Shown: positions 20,317-30,374, counted from the first letter of the stretch. The stretch is 64,000 nucleotides of DNA from a virus (IMGVR_UViG_3300019370_000055:60012-124011), one strand, 5' to 3'. The notes: a model not told the origin generated them from the letters alone. Program-made: numbers and translations.

Positions 20317-20360
20317 AACAAAAATCTCCCCTACTGCTTCATGTAGTAGGGGAGGGATAT

Positions 20361-20451
20361 GGCAGATTAACCCTAACTGGTAAGGGACGAGTCTTGAAAA
20401 CTCGCAGTAGTCCGAAAGGGCGTTTGGGTTCGAGTCCCAAATCTGTCGCCA
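20361..20451 (+). tRNA. tRNA-Ser(TGA)
   Basis: GGCAGAT/ATCTGTC acceptor, CGAGT-CTTGAAA-ACTCG anticodon arm, long variable arm, TTCGAGT T-loop, G73, encoded CCA. Confidence 0.92.
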
Positions 20452-20516
20452 GCCTTAAATTAAGGCAAAGAAAACATATTATAATAAGAAATCAAAAACA
20501 GAAAGGAAACAAAACA

Positions 20517-21098
20517 ATGAAAAAGCTGAATGTAACTCTGATTGGTAATTCTCCCCTGATTATGCACTCTCCTAAGTGTGTAAATCCGCTGCATCCGATT
20601 AGCATTGAAATGAAAAAGTACACTTCTAAGAAGAAAAAGACAGAGGAAGATTTGCTGAAGATTTCTGATCTGGAATGGGAGTCTGGTGTTTATTGGGATG
20701 ATACTGTTGGTTTACATATTCCGAATGAGTGCATCAAGGCTACAATCCAGAATGGCGCAAAGGCCAATCGTAAGGGCGCAGATATTTCCAAGTATCTTCA
20801 GGTTGATACTTTAATGGCTCCTGTTGATATTTCTGAGCCGCAGAATTATGAGATTTTGAAAACTGATAATCGTTATCGTGATGTGCGTTCTGTTTGTGTG
20901 CAGCGCAATCGTGTGATTCGTACACGTCCTCGTTTTAATACATGGAAAGTAACTTTTGATATTTCTTATGATGAGAATATGATGGATATTTCCACTATCA
21001 TCAATGCAATCGAATATGCTGGCAGTTATGTTGGCCTTTGTGAAATGCGTGATCGTGGATATGGTAGATTCTCTGCTAATATTGTTGAGGTAGCGTAA
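20517..21098 (+). CDS. stand-alone Cas7/Csm3-like RAMP-fold protein (193 aa), putative guide-RNA-binding effector
   Basis: LNVTLIGNSPLIMH (first strand), IPNECIKATI (cf. IPGSSLKG), Arg-rich RNRVIRTRPRF, Gly-rich C-terminal loop GSYVGLCEMRDRGYGRF; AAAGGA RBS before ATG 20517. Confidence 0.78.
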   Translation: MKKLNVTLIGNSPLIMHSPKCVNPLHPISIEMKKYTSKKKKTEEDLLKISDLEWESGVYWDDTVGLHIPNECIKATIQNGAKANRKGADISKYLQVDTLMAPVDISEPQNYEILKTDNRYRDVRSVCVQRNRVIRTRPRFNTWKVTFDISYDENMMDISTIINAIEYAGSYVGLCEMRDRGYGRFSANIVEVA

Positions 21099-21116
21099 GA
21101 TTTATAAGGATATAAA

Positions 21117-21152
21117 GTCTGTACCATGCTACAAGTGTGGTATGGTACAGAC
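21117..21152 (+). other. stem-loop at the 5' end of the pentamer array (leader or processing signal)
   Basis: GTCTGTACCATGCTACA pairs with TGTGGTATGGTACAGAC; no U-tract follows. Confidence 0.7.
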
Positions 21153-21162
21153 ATAAAATTGA

Positions 21163-21412
21163 GGATTATAGGGTCTGGTATGGTGAGGTTGGATAGGCTC
21201 GGATAGGATCAGGTATGATGAGGTAAGGATTTTAAGGTATGATATGGTCAGGTTGGGTATGGTTGAATCGGGTAGGATGCGGTATGGTAAGGATTTTAAG
21301 GCCCGGTAAGGTAGTGTATGATTAGGTTAGGTTAGATTAGGTGTGGTATGAATTTTAAGATTTGGCAAGGTCAAGTGAGGTGTAATCTGGTTTGGTTAGG
21401 TAAGGATTTAAA
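21163..21412 (+). ncRNA. GGT-NN pentamer array 1: four units of 11, 11, 10 and 9 pentamers separated by GGATTTTAA
   Basis: Strict 5-nt period with GGT/GAT/GGC triplets and variable dinucleotides; delimiters at 21227, 21291, 21350, 21404. Confidence 0.85.
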
Positions 21413-21443
21413 AAGATATTTTTAATAAAGGAGTAAAATCAAA

Positions 21444-21893
21444 ATGAAAACAAATAAGCAAGTAGAAAAACTTGTAAATTATATTGTCGAAAAGGACTAT
21501 GGAACAGTAATTTTTCATCAGGAAATTGCGAATTTGCTTGGTGTTCAATATGGTTCACAGCAATATAGTAGTATTGTTCAAAGGGCAAAAAAGAAGTTGC
21601 TTGAAGCTGGCAAGATGATTGATTGTGTTCGCAAAACGGGATATGAAATTATTATGCCAGATAACTATACTAATTCCGCAGTAAAAGCACTTTCTGATGG
21701 CGCAAAAAAGATTGATAAAGGTGGCAAAATTATGGGTAATGCTCCAGTACAGAAAATGAGTCCTGCTGGTCTGGAATCATATAATCTTGTAAATGATCGT
21801 TTGCATCTTGTTCGTGCTGCTATTGCAGGAGCAGTCGTAGAAGTTAATATGCTTAGTCAAAAGCGACCTCATCCTCTTGCATTAACAAAGTGA
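21444..21893 (+). CDS. winged-HTH accessory protein located between the two arrays
   Basis: HQEIANLLG...VQRAKKKLL..IDCVRKTGYEI (HTH plus wing), helical C-terminus; AAGGAG RBS. Confidence 0.7.
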   Translation: MKTNKQVEKLVNYIVEKDYGTVIFHQEIANLLGVQYGSQQYSSIVQRAKKKLLEAGKMIDCVRKTGYEIIMPDNYTNSAVKALSDGAKKIDKGGKIMGNAPVQKMSPAGLESYNLVNDRLHLVRAAIAGAVVEVNMLSQKRPHPLALTK

Positions 21894-21906
21894 TATATTA
21901 GATTAA

Positions 21907-22030
21907 GGTAAGGATTTTAAGGTTAGGTTTGATGGGGTGTAGTGAGGTATGATATGGTGAGGTTTGGTATGGTTAGGATTTTAAGGTACGGTATGATTCG
22001 GTTCGGTTAGGTCAGGTGGGGTATGGGTGT
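21907..22030 (+). ncRNA. GGT-NN pentamer array 2: two units of 11 and 8-9 pentamers
   Basis: Same grammar as array 1; GGATTTTAA at 21912 and 21976. Confidence 0.85.
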
Positions 22031-22036
22031 AAAAAA

Positions 22037-22059
22037 TCTCCCCCATAAAGTGGGGGAGA
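22037..22059 (+). other. hairpin between array 2 and the tRNA-like gene; a similar hairpin lies at about 20326-20354
   Basis: TCTCCCCCA-TAAAG-TGGGGGAGA; may also terminate the minus-strand immR/immA-like transcript. Confidence 0.65.
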
Positions 22060-22064
22060 AATAT

Positions 22065-22158
22065 TGGAGAATGGTGGAATGGTAGACACGCCGCCACTAT
22101 AGAGCGGTGGAAGGTAGCGCAACCTTCTTTGTAGGTTCGAGTCCTACTTCTCCAGCCA
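22065..22158 (+). tRNA. class II tRNA-like gene with non-canonical anticodon loop (identity unassigned)
   Basis: TGGAGAA/TTCTCCA acceptor plus G-CCA, Leu-like D arm, long variable arm, GTAGG-TTCGAGT-CCTAC T arm; anticodon arm CCGC-CACTATAGA-GCGG. Confidence 0.75.
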
Positions 22159-22783
22159 AATTATAACGTTGATTAACCAATCTTCTCATATCATTTTCCC
22201 AAGCTGTTTTTCTGTGACTACGTTTCCACTTGAGATATTCTCTCCAACGCACATCAGAAGCCTCCCATGACAGCCCAAAGACACGCTGAACATCCTGTGC
22301 TGACTGAATACGAAGCTGGTCATATAAAGGCATAGGACAAAGCAGGAGGGCGGCAAAGTAGTCTGCTTCTCCCTCCAGTTCAGGATTAGAAAGGTTATTA
22401 AAGTTGTTTTCTGCGATCCGTGGCTCTGCCAAGTAAGGAAGATGATTTAATTTGACATGACCAAGTTCGTGTGCCAGAGTCCAACGAATACGGCCTATAA
22501 CATTGTTGTTAGCTGTAGAACTATTAACAAGGACAAGGTATCTATCGTTCGTTATGTCATAATGGGTACAGCCACTTTCACTTTCGCATAATGCAAAAAC
22601 TTCATCTAAACTACATGAATTGATTTTAGCAAAAGTAGAATATGGCATTATTCTACAGTTTTCAATCTGATTAAAAAATAGCCGAGGATTCATAGGGAAA
22701 CTGATAGAAGGTAAGCTGCGGTAAAGTTGTAGAACTTGGTTGCAAATATACGCATATCTAATCAAGAGTCTATCACCTCGCAA
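22097..22783 (-). CDS. ImmA/IrrE-family metallopeptidase (antirepressor)
   Basis: RIRWTLAHELGH...EGEADYFAALLLCP. Confidence 0.9.
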   Translation of the reverse strand: MRGDRLLIRYAYICNQVLQLYRSLPSISFPMNPRLFFNQIENCRIMPYSTFAKINSCSLDEVFALCESESGCTHYDITNDRYLVLVNSSTANNNVIGRIRWTLAHELGHVKLNHLPYLAEPRIAENNFNNLSNPELEGEADYFAALLLCPMPLYDQLRIQSAQDVQRVFGLSWEASDVRWREYLKWKRSHRKTAWENDMRRLVNQRYNLAGEVGLEPTKKVALPSTAL

Positions 22784-22817
22784 TTATCATAGCAAAATTA
22801 GTGTCCAATAAAACGGA

Positions 22818-23168
22818 CTATTCATTATCATCTCTAAAAGCATAATCAAAGCCAAGACGAAGCATCTGCATCATGCGCTGCGGGTCGCCTTTAATCATTT
22901 TTGACTTTGCTCTTTGTATTGAAATAATATCTGGATCACCACAAATTTCATCTGCCGATGTAGGAATTTCGGTTAGGCCAAGCAGATAGTCTACTGTGAC
23001 ACCAAAGTATTGTGCTATTGCTTTAATTTTGTCTACTCCGGGCGTACTGGTTGCTTTCCATTTTTTTATCGTGGAATTTGAAAATCCACAATCGCTTTCT
23101 AAACGGGCTATGCTGATTTTCCTTTCTTCACATAGTCTTTGAATGCGATCATACAGTCCAAGTTCCAT
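22818..23168 (-). CDS. XRE-family HTH repressor (ImmR/CI-like)
   Basis: ISIARLESDCGFSNSTIKKW...IAQYFGVTVDYLLG. Confidence 0.92.
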   Translation of the reverse strand: MELGLYDRIQRLCEERKISIARLESDCGFSNSTIKKWKATSTPGVDKIKAIAQYFGVTVDYLLGLTEIPTSADEICGDPDIISIQRAKSKMIKGDPQRMMQMLRLGFDYAFRDDNE

Positions 23169-23295: not shown

Positions 23296-24042
23296 TTGTC
23301 AATACTGAATAGGAGTGTGGTTAAGTTGCATAATAAAATTAAGCCTGTGGACAATGTGAGGATGCTTTCTTTGATTTCTCTATTGAGCAAGTACGATTTA
23401 TTCCATATCACAACTGATAATGGAAGGGAATTTAATGCGACTGAAATTGTTAGTGAAAATGAAGGATATTTAGAGTTCAAGCGTCTTTTTGCGAATTCAG
23501 TCTATTCTAATGGCTGTATTACAGATATTCAAGCCATTTGCGAAACTGAGTTTGTCTGCAAAACTTCTACTGTGACATATCATATTTCTGCATTACATAT
23601 TAAACCGCAGAATCCTATTATTAGGGAACGTAAAACGTGGAAAGAAATATCCGACTTGATGGATGTAAATTATATTGGTGAACGTTTGATTCGTTATATC
23701 AAGGAATTGGATATGCTGGTTCTGGCGATTGATCCTATTCTGTTGGGGGAATTACACCCTATGGAGCAGCGGCAGATTCAACATCTTATTAATGCCTATT
23801 TGGATGGATATTCTGATTTGTTGCAGATGAGCCGTACTGTATGTTTTCAAGTTAAGCTGTATGATGGACGGAATAGGATTTATGCTGGAGTTTATGATCT
23901 GGAAGGCCAGTGTTCAGTAACCAGTGTTCTTATTTATGATGACCGGGATAAGGAGAATTTTTCTGATGAGTTTTATAATAAGGCACAGGCCATATTAAAA
24001 TATGCAAAAACGACAGCTACCAAAATCTTCTTTCAAAATTGA
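23296..24042 (+). CDS. hypothetical protein divergent from the repressor (start uncertain)
   Basis: 248-aa ORF. Confidence 0.65.
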   Translation: MSILNRSVVKLHNKIKPVDNVRMLSLISLLSKYDLFHITTDNGREFNATEIVSENEGYLEFKRLFANSVYSNGCITDIQAICETEFVCKTSTVTYHISALHIKPQNPIIRERKTWKEISDLMDVNYIGERLIRYIKELDMLVLAIDPILLGELHPMEQRQIQHLINAYLDGYSDLLQMSRTVCFQVKLYDGRNRIYAGVYDLEGQCSVTSVLIYDDRDKENFSDEFYNKAQAILKYAKTTATKIFFQN

Positions 24043-24122: not shown

Positions 24123-24473
24123 ATGAAGGCAATAAAAAGGGGAGATATTTATTATGCTGATTTAAGCCCCGCAATAGGAAGTGAACAAGGTGGTATTCGT
24201 CCAGTTTTAATAGTTCAAAATAATGTCGGGAATTATTATAGTCCAACTGTGATTATTGCTGTCTTGACTTCTAAATCAAAGAAACATTTACCAACACATA
24301 TCAGCATCCATTCTGGAGAAGGTAACATTGCTATGGATTCTACAGTATTACTGGAGCAACTACGAACAATAGACAAAAATAGGCTTCAGAAATATGTAGG
24401 TAGCGTTTCAGATGATACAATGGATCGTGTTGACCGGGCCATGCTGGTCAGTCTTGGATTAAATATAGCATAA
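24123..24473 (+). CDS. mazF: PemK/MazF (EndoA-like) endoribonuclease toxin
   Basis: KRGDIYYADLSPAIGSEQGGIRPVLIVQN...LEQLRTIDK. Confidence 0.93.
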   Translation: MKAIKRGDIYYADLSPAIGSEQGGIRPVLIVQNNVGNYYSPTVIIAVLTSKSKKHLPTHISIHSGEGNIAMDSTVLLEQLRTIDKNRLQKYVGSVSDDTMDRVDRAMLVSLGLNIA

Positions 24474-28181: not shown

Positions 28182-30374
28182 ATGAGGGTTCTGCTTTTGC
28201 TCCGTGGGTCTGCTGGAGTGGGTAAGTCTACTTATATTAAGGAACACGATCTGGAGCAGTATGCACTTTCTGCTGACAATATCCGCTTGATGTGTCAGTC
28301 GCCCGTTTTGCAAACAGATGGATCAATGGCAATCAGTCAGACAAATGAAAAGCTGGTATGGAATCTCTTGTTCCAGATGCTTGAGGCCAGAATGCAGCGT
28401 GGCGAATTTGTGGTGATTGACGCAACCAATTCTAAGACACAGGAGATCAACCGTTATAAGGACATGGCAAAGACATATCGGTATCGGATTTTCTGTGTTG
28501 ATATGACTGGCGTTCCTATGGAGGAATGTAAACGGCGCAATAAATTGAGGCCGCTTTATAAACAGGTTCCAGATGAAGTAATCGAAAAAATGTACGCACG
28601 TTTTGAAACACAAGCTATTCCTGCTGGTGTGACTGTAATCCAGCCTGACGAACTTGACAAGATTTGGTATAAGCCGAGTGACTATTCTCATTACAAAAAG
28701 ATTCATCATATCGGTGATATTCATGGTTGTTATACTGTCTTGCAAGAGTATCTAAAAGATGGATTTAAGGATAATGAACTGTATATTTTTTGTGGTGATT
28801 ACATTGATCGTGGCCTTGAGAATGTTGAGGTTGTAAGTTTCCTGTTTGAAAATATGAATCGTCCTAATGTAATCTTGCTGGAAGGTAATCACGAACGCTG
28901 GCTGTGGTATTGGGCGCATGGCGGTACGTCTAAATCGGCAGAATTTGAGAAAGTAACTCGCAAGCAGCTTGAAGCTGGGGGGTTGGATTCTAAAACTGCT
29001 CGAATGTTGTATCGTAAATTTAGTCAATGCGTGTATTATACATATCATGAAAAGACTGTGTTGGTTACTCATGCTGGTTTGAGTGTAATTCCTGATAATC
29101 TGACAAAGATTGCTTCTGAACAGATGATCCGTGGTGTTGGACGATATAGCGATTATTTGAAGGTCGCAAAGACTTTTGATGAAACAATGCCAGACAATAC
29201 ATATCAGGTATTTGGTCATCGAAATACTGAGGATTCTCCGATTGCAGCATCTAAACGTTGTTTTGATTTAGAGGGCTGTGTAGAGTTTGGTGGTAATCTT
29301 AGGGCAGTAGTTTTGGATGCAGACGGTTTTCATCCTGTAATGGTTCGGAATACAGTATTTAAGGAACATATCACAGAGGCAGAAGTTGTTCCTGCTGAAT
29401 ATACTAAAACCGAACAGAATGTTATGGAAGTTGTTGATCAGATGCGTCAGAACAAATATATCTACGAAAAGAAATATGGTGACATTTCCTCGTTCAACTT
29501 TACACGGGAGGCTTTTTACGATAAGAAGTGGAATGAACAGACTATGAAGGCCAGAGGTTTGTTTATCAATACCACAAAGGGCGTTGTAGTGGCTCGTTCT
29601 TATCCGAAGTTCTTTAATGTAAATGAGAGGGCAGAAACTAAGTTCAATATGCTCCAGCACAAATTAAGATTCCCTGTTACAGCGTATGTAAAAGAGAATG
29701 GGTTCCTTGGTATGGTGTCATATAACCCCGATACAGATGATTTCTTTATTACCAGTAAATCCAGTCCTGACAGCGAGTTTTCTGCATGGCTAAAAGCAAT
29801 GTTCTATGAGAATGTTAAAGACGCTGCTGGCCTGAAGGAATATTTGAAACAAAAGAATGTGACAATGGTATTTGAGTGCGTGGATATGGAGAACGATCCG
29901 CATATTATCAAATATGACAAGTCTCATTTGTTCTTGCTGGATATTGTTAAAAATCAACTGGAATATGAAAAGTTGCCTTATTCGCAACTTACTCAGATTG
30001 GTAAGAAATTTGGGTTTGAGGTTAAGACACTGGCATATCAGTTTAATGACTGGCAAAGTTTCCATAACTGGTATAATGAAATTACCGATGAAAGTTATCT
30101 TTATGATGGCAAGTACATTGAAGGCTTTGTTGTAGAGGATAGTGTTGGCTATATGGTGAAGTTTAAGGGCTACTATTATCATCTATGGAAACATATGCGT
30201 TCTGTTGCACAGGAAGTATTTAGAAGCGGTCAGTATCGGCGTATGGGGTCTTTGCTTACACCTCTTGAAAATAAGTTTTATGGATTCTGTAAAGAGATTC
30301 GAGAGCAGGATCATCCAACACATATCATTGCGTTACGTGATATGTTCATGCAGCGTTTAATTGAAAGCAAATAA
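28182..30374 (+). CDS. polynucleotide kinase / metallophosphoesterase / RNA ligase fusion (RNA repair)
   Basis: GSAGVGKS P-loop and IDATN; GDIHG, GDYIDRG, GNHE; ARGLF, KFFN, KENG, EGFV. Confidence 0.9.
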   Translation: MRVLLLLRGSAGVGKSTYIKEHDLEQYALSADNIRLMCQSPVLQTDGSMAISQTNEKLVWNLLFQMLEARMQRGEFVVIDATNSKTQEINRYKDMAKTYRYRIFCVDMTGVPMEECKRRNKLRPLYKQVPDEVIEKMYARFETQAIPAGVTVIQPDELDKIWYKPSDYSHYKKIHHIGDIHGCYTVLQEYLKDGFKDNELYIFCGDYIDRGLENVEVVSFLFENMNRPNVILLEGNHERWLWYWAHGGTSKSAEFEKVTRKQLEAGGLDSKTARMLYRKFSQCVYYTYHEKTVLVTHAGLSVIPDNLTKIASEQMIRGVGRYSDYLKVAKTFDETMPDNTYQVFGHRNTEDSPIAASKRCFDLEGCVEFGGNLRAVVLDADGFHPVMVRNTVFKEHITEAEVVPAEYTKTEQNVMEVVDQMRQNKYIYEKKYGDISSFNFTREAFYDKKWNEQTMKARGLFINTTKGVVVARSYPKFFNVNERAETKFNMLQHKLRFPVTAYVKENGFLGMVSYNPDTDDFFITSKSSPDSEFSAWLKAMFYENVKDAAGLKEYLKQKNVTMVFECVDMENDPHIIKYDKSHLFLLDIVKNQLEYEKLPYSQLTQIGKKFGFEVKTLAYQFNDWQSFHNWYNEITDESYLYDGKYIEGFVVEDSVGYMVKFKGYYYHLWKHMRSVAQEVFRSGQYRRMGSLLTPLENKFYGFCKEIREQDHPTHIIALRDMFMQRLIESK

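What the first reader, a model, noticed from the sequence alone, without database searches (positions are those of the whole stretch)
20517..22030. Solo Cas7/RAMP-like gene with GGT-NN pentamer arrays: candidate RNA-guided system with an interrupted guide code
Seen in sequence: a 193-aa protein with RAMP hallmarks (SPLIMH strand, IPNECIK, Gly-rich GYGRF loop) and no cas1/2/3/5/6 or CRISPR array in the window. Two non-coding tracts with a strict 5-nt period follow it: a near-constant triplet (GGT, with GAT/GGC/AGT variants) plus a variable dinucleotide, divided by GGATTTTAA into six units of about 50-64 nt. Dinucleotides per unit: U1 ct at ga tg ag cg ag ca at ga aa; U2 at at ca tg at tg cg ag gc at aa; U3 cc aa ag at ta ta ta ta gt at; U4 tt aa ca ga gt ct tt ta aa; U5 ta tt gg gt ga at at ga tt at ta; U6 ac at tc tc ta ca gg at. 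Every unit differs, as spacers do. Established: Cas7-type RAMPs polymerise along RNA with a fixed nucleotide period. Inference: one protomer binds each GGU and exposes the NN, so the dinucleotides jointly specify a gapped target, probably in competing phages or host defence genes. With no nuclease present, silencing is more likely than cutting. From memory and unverified here, this resembles the recently reported phage VIPR (GGY/NN repeat) architecture.
Basis: partly seen in the sequence, partly recalled or inferred. Interest (0 to 1): 0.97.

Follow-up and report, generated by a model that had tools for sequence, protein, structure and literature searches.

The report
Phage VIPR locus with compact guides
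This is a genuine example of the VIPR system first described in 2026 preprints, in which a phage uses a small Cas7-like protein and five-letter-repeat guide RNAs to silence rival phages; here three of the six guides match genes of other phages, including this phage's own relatives.

Summary
The class is already published, and this scan has noted it 260 times in at least 211 genomes.

**What the locus is**
- The 193-aa protein (20517-21098) is a Vipr. It matches PDB 36pp "SUSP1 Vipr protein" at E 2.4e-26 and phrog_4652 at 8e-49. Its AlphaFold model (pLDDT 90.5) is closest to Csm3/Cas7.
- Sixty pentamers form six guide units. The triplet positions are nearly fixed and the NN positions nearly random.
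- Contigs whose Vipr is 98% identical carry entirely different NN.
- The 124-kb phage has no Cas1 hit, no match to Pfam's RAMP model, no CRISPR-like array in the window and no other pentamer array.

**Natural targets, following the published 1-nt-skip, wobble-aligned rule**
- U1 (21/22) and U5 (20/22; 0 of 2000 shuffles reach this) hit two genes on one metagenomic contig, which comes from a relative of this phage.
- U2 matches exactly a conserved motif of YonV-like helicase genes in 14 phage or prophage sequences.

**Difference from the studied SUSP1 clade**
- Units are contiguous and separated only by an unstructured 9-nt GGATTTTAA-type element, with no pseudoknot tail. This is probably the paper's "staggered array".

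Verdict: a new member of a known kind, of modest interest.

The parts
20480..20485 (+). Possible -10 box (TATAAT) between tRNA-Ser and vipr; candidate promoter of the whole locus
   Evidence: Read directly from the sequence. The consensus promoter scan did not flag it. Inference only.
20517..21098 (+). vipr: 193-aa Vipr protein, a minimal RAMP related to Cas7
   Evidence: PDB 36pp 'SUSP1 Vipr protein' E 2.4e-26 over residues 1-190. 31% identity to phiSUSP1 ALH47069.1. phrog_4652 E 8e-49, the same family as SUSP1 Vipr. AF2 pLDDT 90.5. Top Foldseek hits are Csm3/Cas7 chains of type III-A and chains of type VII effector complexes, E about 1e-5. H17, K33, E71, R137 and R178 are conserved.
21099..21171 (+). 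Array leader: a separator-like 9-mer right after the stop codon (21099-21107), a 16-bp hairpin (21117-21152) and the leading separator GGATTATAG (21163-21171)
   Evidence: RNAfold gives -27.7 kcal/mol. The same hairpin, with a compensatory pair change, occurs in relatives L107 and L005 but not in L006-L008. No U-run follows it, so it is not a classical terminator.
21172..21235 (+). vrRNA unit U1: 11 pentamers plus the 9-nt separator
   Evidence: Natural target at 21/22 informative bases, in frame, in L120:10535-10566.
21236..21299 (+). vrRNA unit U2: 11 pentamers plus separator
   Evidence: The first 10 units match exactly 14 YonV-like helicase genes on the peptide MIQWIWRSAI, with the skipped base at the wobble position.
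21300..21358 (+). vrRNA unit U3: 10 pentamers plus separator GAATTTTAA
   Evidence: Only a weak candidate target: 16/20, intergenic, at L120:9984-10012, reached by 89 of 2000 shuffles.
21359..21412 (+). vrRNA unit U4: 9 pentamers plus separator GGATTTAAA
   Evidence: No target found; the 50 hits of an 8-unit pattern show no convergence.
21444..21893 (+). vap1-like accessory gene (149 aa), predicted DNA-binding
   Evidence: phrog_5926 E 3e-5, and SUSP1 vap1 falls in the same family at 1e-75. Profile-profile comparison with vap1 of SUSP1, LESphi2, MakoManhole and L010 gives probability 95.9%, E 5e-9. The position after the first array is conserved in relatives L005-L009.
21907..21920 (+). Leader of the second array: GGTAA plus separator GGATTTTAA
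21921..21984 (+). vrRNA unit U5: 11 pentamers plus separator
   Evidence: Natural target at 20/22, in frame on the last 10 codons and the stop codon of L120:3538-3990. None of 2000 shuffled guides reaches this score; other skip lengths give 15/22.
21985..22059 (+). vrRNA unit U6: 8 pentamers (to 22024), then GGGTG, an A-run and a G+C-rich hairpin (22037-22059)
   Evidence: GGGTG followed by a hairpin resembles the start of SUSP1-type tails. No target found.

Best explanation
The locus is a VIPR (Viral Interference Programmable Repeat) system of a 124-kb uncultured phage. It comprises vipr, a four-unit vrRNA array, a vap1-like gene and a two-unit vrRNA array, all on the + strand between two tRNA genes.

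Mechanism, taken from the published SUSP1 and P. fulva work and inferred here:
- The arrays are transcribed.
- One Vipr protomer binds each pentamer.
- Each GGY is sequestered by the RRM, G-loop and thumb of two neighbouring protomers.
- The NN pairs are presented to double-stranded DNA, which is read as NN-x-NN-x, skipping every third base.
- The resulting R-loop/triplex filament blocks transcription. No nuclease is encoded.

Shown here by computation:
- The guides read codon positions 1 and 2 of genes in other phages.
- U1 and U5 hit two genes of a relative of this phage. The phage's own orthologues differ at these sites: 18/22 at the U5 site, and an indel at the U1 site.
- U2 matches a helicase motif of YonV-like genes that this phage lacks.

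The likely biological role is silencing co-infecting or resident rival phages.

Inferred for this clade: unit boundaries are set by a 9-nt unstructured separator. It breaks the 5-nt register by one base and offers an A/U-rich single-stranded site for host RNases. It replaces the structured 3' tail of the SUSP1 clade.
For: **Family**
- PDB 36pp SUSP1 Vipr, E 2.4e-26.
- The same PHROG families as the SUSP1 Vipr and vap1.
- hhalign for vap, probability 95.9%.
- Cas7/Csm3-like fold at pLDDT 90.5.
- RNA- and DNA-contact residues named in paper 2 are conserved (H17, K33, E71, thumb Arg, G-loop Arg).

**Guides**
- 60 pentamers with a fixed triplet and variable NN.
- Relatives with 59-84% identical Vipr have the same architecture with different NN.
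- Contigs with 98% identical Vipr keep the leader and separators but carry entirely different NN.

**Targets**
- U1 scores 21/22 and U5 scores 20/22 on one 13.5-kb locus, both in frame with the skip at the wobble position. For U5, which did not select the locus, 0 of 2000 shuffles reach the score, and skips of 0, 2 or 3 nt give 15/22.
- That locus is a relative of the phage: 68-73% nucleotide identity in several genes, and the U1-target protein is 34% identical to own ORF 23296-24042.
- U2 gives 9 exact hits in IMG/VR and 5 of 6 in genome contigs, all on the same peptide of phrog_2467 / YonV-like proteins.
- Four other 20-base patterns, including U2 read backwards, gave 0 hits in IMG/VR.
- No guide matches the own genome above shuffle level.

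**No CRISPR machinery**.
Against: - No expression, RNP or silencing data exist for this locus or its clade. The mechanism is carried over from proteins that are only 31-36% identical.
- Two G-loop residues differ from SUSP1: Asp to Glu176, and Trp to Met177. The π-stacking aromatic residue is therefore missing.
- About a third of the triplets are not GGY, mostly GAT.
- U3, U4 and U6 have no convincing target.
- The 14 U2 hits are homologous and so count as roughly one independent event. I estimate about 0.1 chance hits in IMG/VR for such a pattern.
- U5 also scores 18/22 at the homologous site of the phage's own gene. That is above the papers' 80% cut-off, so either self-avoidance is imperfect or the cut-off is not functional here.
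- The 11th unit of U1 and U2 (GGTAA) does not fully pair with the targets.
Confidence: 0.92

Rival explanations
1. The locus is a decaying or inactive VIPR remnant. The protein is intact, but the arrays are degenerate and no longer guide anything.
For: 20 of 60 triplets depart from GGY. Three guides have no target. A relative, L009, has a vipr with an in-frame stop and GYT-type repeats.
Against: U2 itself has three non-GGY triplets and still has exact targets. Both genes are intact, and relatives have intact homologues of both. Guides turn over between 98%-identical systems while the scaffold is kept. Paper 1 notes frequent internal degeneracy in working vrRNAs.
Confidence: 0.05
2. The system destroys targets, or acts on RNA, instead of silencing DNA transcription.
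For: Types III-V in paper 1 carry nuclease or helicase vap genes. Cas7 relatives of type III act on RNA.
Against: The only accessory gene is vap1-like, without any nuclease family hit. U1, U2 and U5 all match the coding strand in the sense orientation, which a guide that pairs with mRNA would not do. Paper 2 reports incomplete filament assembly on ssRNA.
Confidence: 0.03
3. The pentamer tracts are ordinary simple repeats or a cis-regulatory element, unrelated to the neighbouring protein.
For: None beyond the low complexity of the tracts.
Against: The tracts are tied to vipr in every relative examined. Variability is confined to positions 4-5. Matches to foreign genes are in frame and follow the published code.
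Confidence: 0.01

Closest known systems
Type II VIPR of Escherichia phage SUSP1 and the Pseudomonas fulva prophage (bioRxiv 10.64898/2026.04.26.720920 and .720927; PDB 36pp)
   Same: - The Vipr protein is homologous over its full length.
- There is a vap1-like partner gene.
- vrRNAs are built from GGY/NN pentamers (8-11 per unit here, 9-16 published).
- Targets follow the 1-nt skip with wobble alignment and lie in rival mobile elements.
- No nuclease and no CRISPR array are present.
   Different: - Vipr identity is only 31%.
- The first array lies between vipr and vap; in SUSP1 the two genes abut.
- Units are contiguous, separated by an unstructured 9-nt element rather than a 40-60-nt structured or pseudoknot tail.
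- The G-loop Asp/Trp are replaced by Glu/Met.
- The phage's host is unknown; the named carriers of U2 target genes are mostly gut Clostridia, not a proteobacterium.
'Staggered' vrRNA arrays mentioned in the same paper (fig. S18 legend)
   Same: [quoted passage not shown] Here each unit is 5n+9 nt long, which shifts the register by one.
   Different: The figure is not available to me, so identity of the two architectures is an inference. The paper says only the other two variant architectures were confirmed by sRNA-seq.
SUSP1-family vrRNAs that target relatives and satellites (bioRxiv 10.64898/2026.10.15.759431)
   Same: Guides follow the codon periodicity of conserved genes. Match scores to other phages are higher than self-match scores, as with U5 here (20/22 on the relative, 18/22 on self).
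   Different: Here the targets are two genes of unknown function in a relative, plus a YonV-like helicase. They are not a satellite recombinase, vipr or vrRNAs.
Class 1 CRISPR Cas7 backbone (Csm3, type III-A; type VII Cas7)
   Same: RRM core, thumb and Gly-rich loop. The protein polymerises along the guide at a fixed period.
   Different: There is no adaptation module, no repeat-spacer array and no Cas5/Cas6/large subunit. The period is 5 nt with only 2 nt read per protomer. Foldseek TM is about 0.53 and sequence identity 13-16%.

Membership tests
VIPR system | Vipr protein homologous to the founding Vipr proteins | tested here: met
   PDB 36pp SUSP1 Vipr E 2.4e-26 over 190 residues; tblastn E 8e-21 to phiSUSP1; phrog_4652 shared with SUSP1 Vipr.
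VIPR system | Minimal RAMP fold with RRM core, thumb and G-loop | tested here: met
   AF2 pLDDT 90.5, pTM 0.85. 74 Foldseek hits at E <= 0.001, led by Csm3/Cas7 chains.
VIPR system | Residues that hold G1, G2, Y3 and the skipped base (paper 2) | tested here: inconclusive
   H17, K33, E71, R137 (thumb) and R178 (G-loop) are conserved. Asp is replaced by Glu176 and Trp by Met177 throughout this clade. G-loop alignment is uncertain by 1-2 residues.
VIPR system | Adjacent tandem YNNGG/GGYNN repeats (at least 4 units) with conserved triplet and hypervariable NN | tested here: met
   60 pentamers in 6 units. NN is entirely different in contigs with 98% identical Vipr.
VIPR system | No CRISPR array or cas operon; two-gene locus with a vap gene | tested here: met
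   No Cas1 hit, no match to Pfam's RAMP model, no CRISPR-like array in the window. vap1-like gene present.
VIPR system | Natural targets obey the 1-nt skip rule with the skip at the codon wobble position | tested here: met
   U1 21/22, U5 20/22 and U2 20/20, all in frame. Skips of 0, 2 and 3 nt stay at background on the same locus.
VIPR system | vrRNAs are expressed, bind Vipr and silence transcription | not testable with these tools
   Needs sRNA-seq, pull-down and reporter assays.
VIPR type II (SUSP1 / P. fulva) | vap1 accessory gene | tested here: met
   phrog_5926 E 3e-5; hhalign probability 95.9%, E 5e-9.
VIPR type II (SUSP1 / P. fulva) | Each vrRNA ends in a conserved structured 3' tail (a pseudoknot in the SUSP1 clade) | tested here: not met
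   U1-U5 end in a 9-nt separator. Units plus separator fold no better than shuffles (z -0.4 to +1.6), against z about -2.1 for SUSP1 tails. Only U6 is followed by a hairpin.
VIPR type II (SUSP1 / P. fulva) | Position in the Vipr phylogeny used for typing | not tested
   The paper's reference set and tree are not held as text. Vipr identity to type II exemplars is 31-36%.

The most novel reading that the evidence does not exclude
In this gut-phage clade, guide boundaries are set purely by a one-base break of the pentamer register at a short unstructured separator, with no capping structure. The system works mainly as kin discrimination: guides read conserved genes of the phage's own relatives at sites where its own orthologues have diverged. 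The result would be RNA-guided superinfection exclusion among relatives.
Probability: 0.35. Interest if true: 0.45.

Novelty: new member of a known kind. Interest (0 to 1): 0.3.

Why it matters
The locus adds no new principle. VIPR, its code and its role in phage-phage conflict were published in 2026.

Its value is as a well-annotated example from a different clade and habitat:
- Three guides have identified natural targets.
- The 1-nt skip rule is confirmed independently in a clade where Vipr is only about 31% identical to the studied one.
- It is a clear case of the compact array form without a structured tail, which the discovery paper did not verify experimentally.
- A compact 54-64-nt unit with a 9-nt delimiter would be a convenient natural template for multiplexed VIPR arrays, if it is shown to be processed.

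Tried and rejected
**Family libraries**
- Pfam and NCBIfam give nothing for either protein.
- Rfam finds only the two tRNAs.

**Similarity searches**
- blastn of the locus against GenBank phages found no match.

**Target searches that found nothing convincing**
- U5: exact 10-unit patterns in two registers gave 0 hits in IMG/VR and 0 in metagenomes.
- U5 with up to 3 mismatches in 401 Oscillospiraceae genomes gave only 3-mismatch hits, about as many as the reversed control.
- U1: 0 hits in IMG/VR.
- U3: the 9-unit pattern gave 2 out-of-frame hits.
- U4: the 8-unit pattern gave 50 hits with stops and no shared family, which is chance level.
- U6 was not scanned, because 16 informative bases are too few.

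**Convergence tests**
- Five whole U2-target records carry no match for the other guides and no vipr.
- Guides of relatives were scanned against all DNA held. Only one stood out: a guide of L005 on a serine recombinase of G001, at 20/22.

**Rejected readings**
- Coding Gly-rich repeat: a 5-nt period keeps no reading frame, and there is no ORF.
- Intrinsic terminator after vipr: no U-run follows the hairpin.
- A claim that U2 is a deliberate 'broad panel' guide: the 14 hits are homologous, and the breadth follows automatically from the code combined with a conserved peptide.

Full report
**1. The observation**

- An ORF of 193 codons lies at 20517-21098.
- Two non-coding tracts follow in which GG recurs every five bases.
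- The tracts are cut into units by GGATTTTAA or close variants at 21227, 21291, 21350, 21404, 21912 and 21976.

Sixty pentamers are present. Position entropies are 0.47, 0.90 and 0.21 bits for the triplet, against 1.91 and 1.81 bits for the NN. The triplets are 40 GGT, 12 GAT and a few others (GGC, AGT, AAT, GCT, TGT), and all 16 dinucleotides occur. No other place in the window or in the whole genome, on either strand, has such periodicity. The window is the second half of a 124-kb IMG/VR virus record that CheckV estimates to be 97% complete.

**2. The protein**

Pfam and NCBIfam are silent on it. Three other lines of evidence identify it:
- It matches the solved 'SUSP1 Vipr protein' (PDB 36pp) at E 2.4e-26 over residues 1-190.
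- It matches the phiSUSP1 gene flanked by the published vrRNA regions, at 31% identity.
- It matches phrog_4652 at 8e-49, the family that also holds the Vipr proteins of SUSP1, LESphi2 and MakoManhole.

An AlphaFold model built on 24 homologues has pLDDT 90.5. Its best structural matches are Csm3/Cas7 subunits of type III-A complexes and chains of type VII effector complexes, at E about 1e-5 and TM about 0.53.

Paper 2 names the residues that contact the RNA and DNA. His17, Lys33, Glu71, the thumb Arg (137 here) and the G-loop Arg (178 here) are conserved in this clade. The Asp and Trp of the SUSP1 G-loop are Glu176 and Met177 here.

**3. The second gene**

- It hits phrog_5926 at E 3e-5, which is the family of SUSP1 vap1 (1e-75).
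- A profile of it and its five relatives aligns to a profile of type II vap1 proteins with 95.9% probability and E 5e-9.
- The order vipr, array, vap is kept in relatives L005-L009.

**4. Relatives**

More than 1000 homologues exist in metagenomes. Six IMG/VR loci with 36-84% identical Vipr were fetched, and five of them (the sixth, L009, is described in section 8) show the same contiguous arrays with 9-nt separators of the GGATTWTNN or GGTTTYTAA kind and unrelated NN. Three contigs whose Vipr is 98% identical keep the leader hairpin and the separators but carry entirely different NN. So the scaffold is conserved and the guide letters turn over quickly, as published for vrRNAs.

**5. Targets**

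I used the published rule: concatenate the NN with one wildcard and search both strands.

*Own genome.* No guide matches above the level of shuffled guides.

*U2.* Its first ten units have 9 exact matches in IMG/VR and 6 in the species-genome collection.
- Fourteen of the 15 lie on the peptide MIQWIWRSAI of one protein family, in frame. The skipped base is at the wobble position, which varies among the hits.
- The remaining hit is out of frame, in a Methyloversatilis MAG, and is the expected chance hit.
- The family is phrog_2467, with a weak DEAD-box N-terminus, labelled YonV-like by the protein atlas.
- The named carriers are four Oscillospiraceae MAGs (Ca. Pelethomonas counted among them) and one Odoribacter MAG.
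- The phage itself has no such gene, and five target records have no vipr.
- Because the 14 hits are homologous they amount to about one independent event. From the hit counts of the 16- and 18-base patterns I estimate about 0.1 chance hits in IMG/VR for a 20-base pattern of this composition.
- Four other 20-base patterns, including U2 read backwards, gave none.

*U1.* It has three exact ten-unit hits in metagenome contigs. All three are one identical element, in frame on LIDWSRSHID of a 233-aa ORF, at 21/22.

*U5.* On that same 13.5-kb locus U5 scores 20/22, in frame on the last ten codons and the stop codon of another gene (phrog_5329).
- None of 2000 shuffled guides reaches this score.
- Skips of 0, 2 or 3 nt give 15/22.
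- Since the locus was chosen by U1, this is an independent test of both the targeting and the skip rule.

*The targeted contig.* It is a relative of the phage: several genes are 68-73% identical at the DNA level. The U1-target protein is 34% identical (E 2e-28) to the phage's own ORF 23296-24042, which has an indel at the site. The phage's own orthologue of the U5 target scores 18/22 at the homologous site. This echoes the lower self-match scores reported for SUSP1-family guides.

*U3, U4 and U6.* None has a convincing target.

**6. How it most likely works**

Shown here: homology, fold, array anatomy, guide turnover, and in-frame 1-nt-skip matches in rival phages.

Taken from the papers: one protomer binds each pentamer, the GGY is sequestered, the NN pair with dsDNA, a triplex/R-loop filament forms, and transcription is silenced.

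Inferred: the locus is one transcription unit running from a possible promoter near 20480 to the hairpin at 22037-22059. It silences relatives and other phages that share the host.

**7. What differs from the studied systems**

SUSP1, LESphi2 and MakoManhole vrRNAs carry 40-60-nt structured tails. Here U1-U5 are followed only by nine unstructured bases. Units plus separator fold no better than shuffles, while SUSP1 tails have z about -2.1.

Each unit is 5n+9 nt long, so successive units are one base out of register. This fits the legend of the paper's 'staggered arrays', an architecture the authors did not confirm by sRNA-seq. My inference is that the register break ends each filament and that the exposed A/U-rich linker is where host RNases cut.

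By its accessory gene the locus is type II-like. It does not meet the tail feature of the SUSP1 clade, and I could not place it in the typing tree.

**8. Side observations in relatives**
- A guide of the 84% relative L005 matches a serine recombinase gene of G001 at 20/22, in frame. G001 is a 123-kb provirus that also carries a U2 site.
- L009 has a vipr with an in-frame TAA after His17 and repeats of G-Y-T-NN type.

**9. Verdict**

The class has been in print since April 2026, and this scan already holds 260 notes on it in at least 211 genomes. A later check of one such note found that claims of deliberately broad, motif-directed guide panels did not stand, so I do not make that claim for U2. 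The locus is a new member of a known kind. Its modest added value is three natural targets, kin-directed guides, and a clear example of the compact array form.

Noticed in passing
L009:3001-3900 (IMGVR_UViG_3300045988_155164): A 59%-identical vipr has an in-frame TAA directly after His17, where the other homologues aligned have an invariant Ser. Its array uses G-Y-T-NN pentamers (mostly GTT) with GCATTTTAA-type separators instead of GGT-NN. It is either a decaying system or a variant scaffold.
   Followed up: partly
window 21117-21152: A 16-bp hairpin lies between vipr and the first unit. Its 3' arm itself reads as two GGT-NN pentamers. It is conserved, with a compensatory pair change, in L107 and L005 but absent in L006-L008. 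No U-run follows it. Its role (processing site, stabiliser or Vipr-binding autoregulator) is unknown.
   Followed up: partly
genome 29704-29735 (outside the window, minus strand): Guide U5 matches the phage's own orthologue of its target gene at 18 of 22 informative bases. That is above the 80% cut-off the papers use for natural targets, although shuffled guides also reach 18.
   Followed up: partly
window 20330-20451 and 22037-22158: Both tRNA genes flanking the locus are unusually long: tRNA-Ser(tga) at 91 nt and tRNA-Ile(tat) at 94 nt. Each is preceded by a similar A-run followed by a CTCCCC...GGGGAG hairpin.
   Followed up: no
window 22097-23168 (minus strand) and 24123-24473: Next to the VIPR locus lies the only minus-strand pair in the region: an XRE-type HTH regulator and an ImmA/IrrE-like metalloprotease (phrog_8, phrog_1914). 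A MazF-like toxin gene (phrog_1936) follows. The protease ORF runs about 60 nt into tRNA-Ile.
   Followed up: no
G001:32881-32912 (L027), minus strand: A guide of relative L005 (unit at L005:4347) matches a serine recombinase gene of the 123-kb provirus G001 at 20/22, in frame. G001 also carries a U2 site, so two related VIPR systems may aim at the same element.
   Followed up: partly
window 28182-30374: A 730-aa fusion of polynucleotide kinase/phosphatase and RNA ligase (phrog_8238, E 1e-221) is present. This is a tRNA-repair type enzyme, consistent with the phage countering anticodon nucleases.
   Followed up: no
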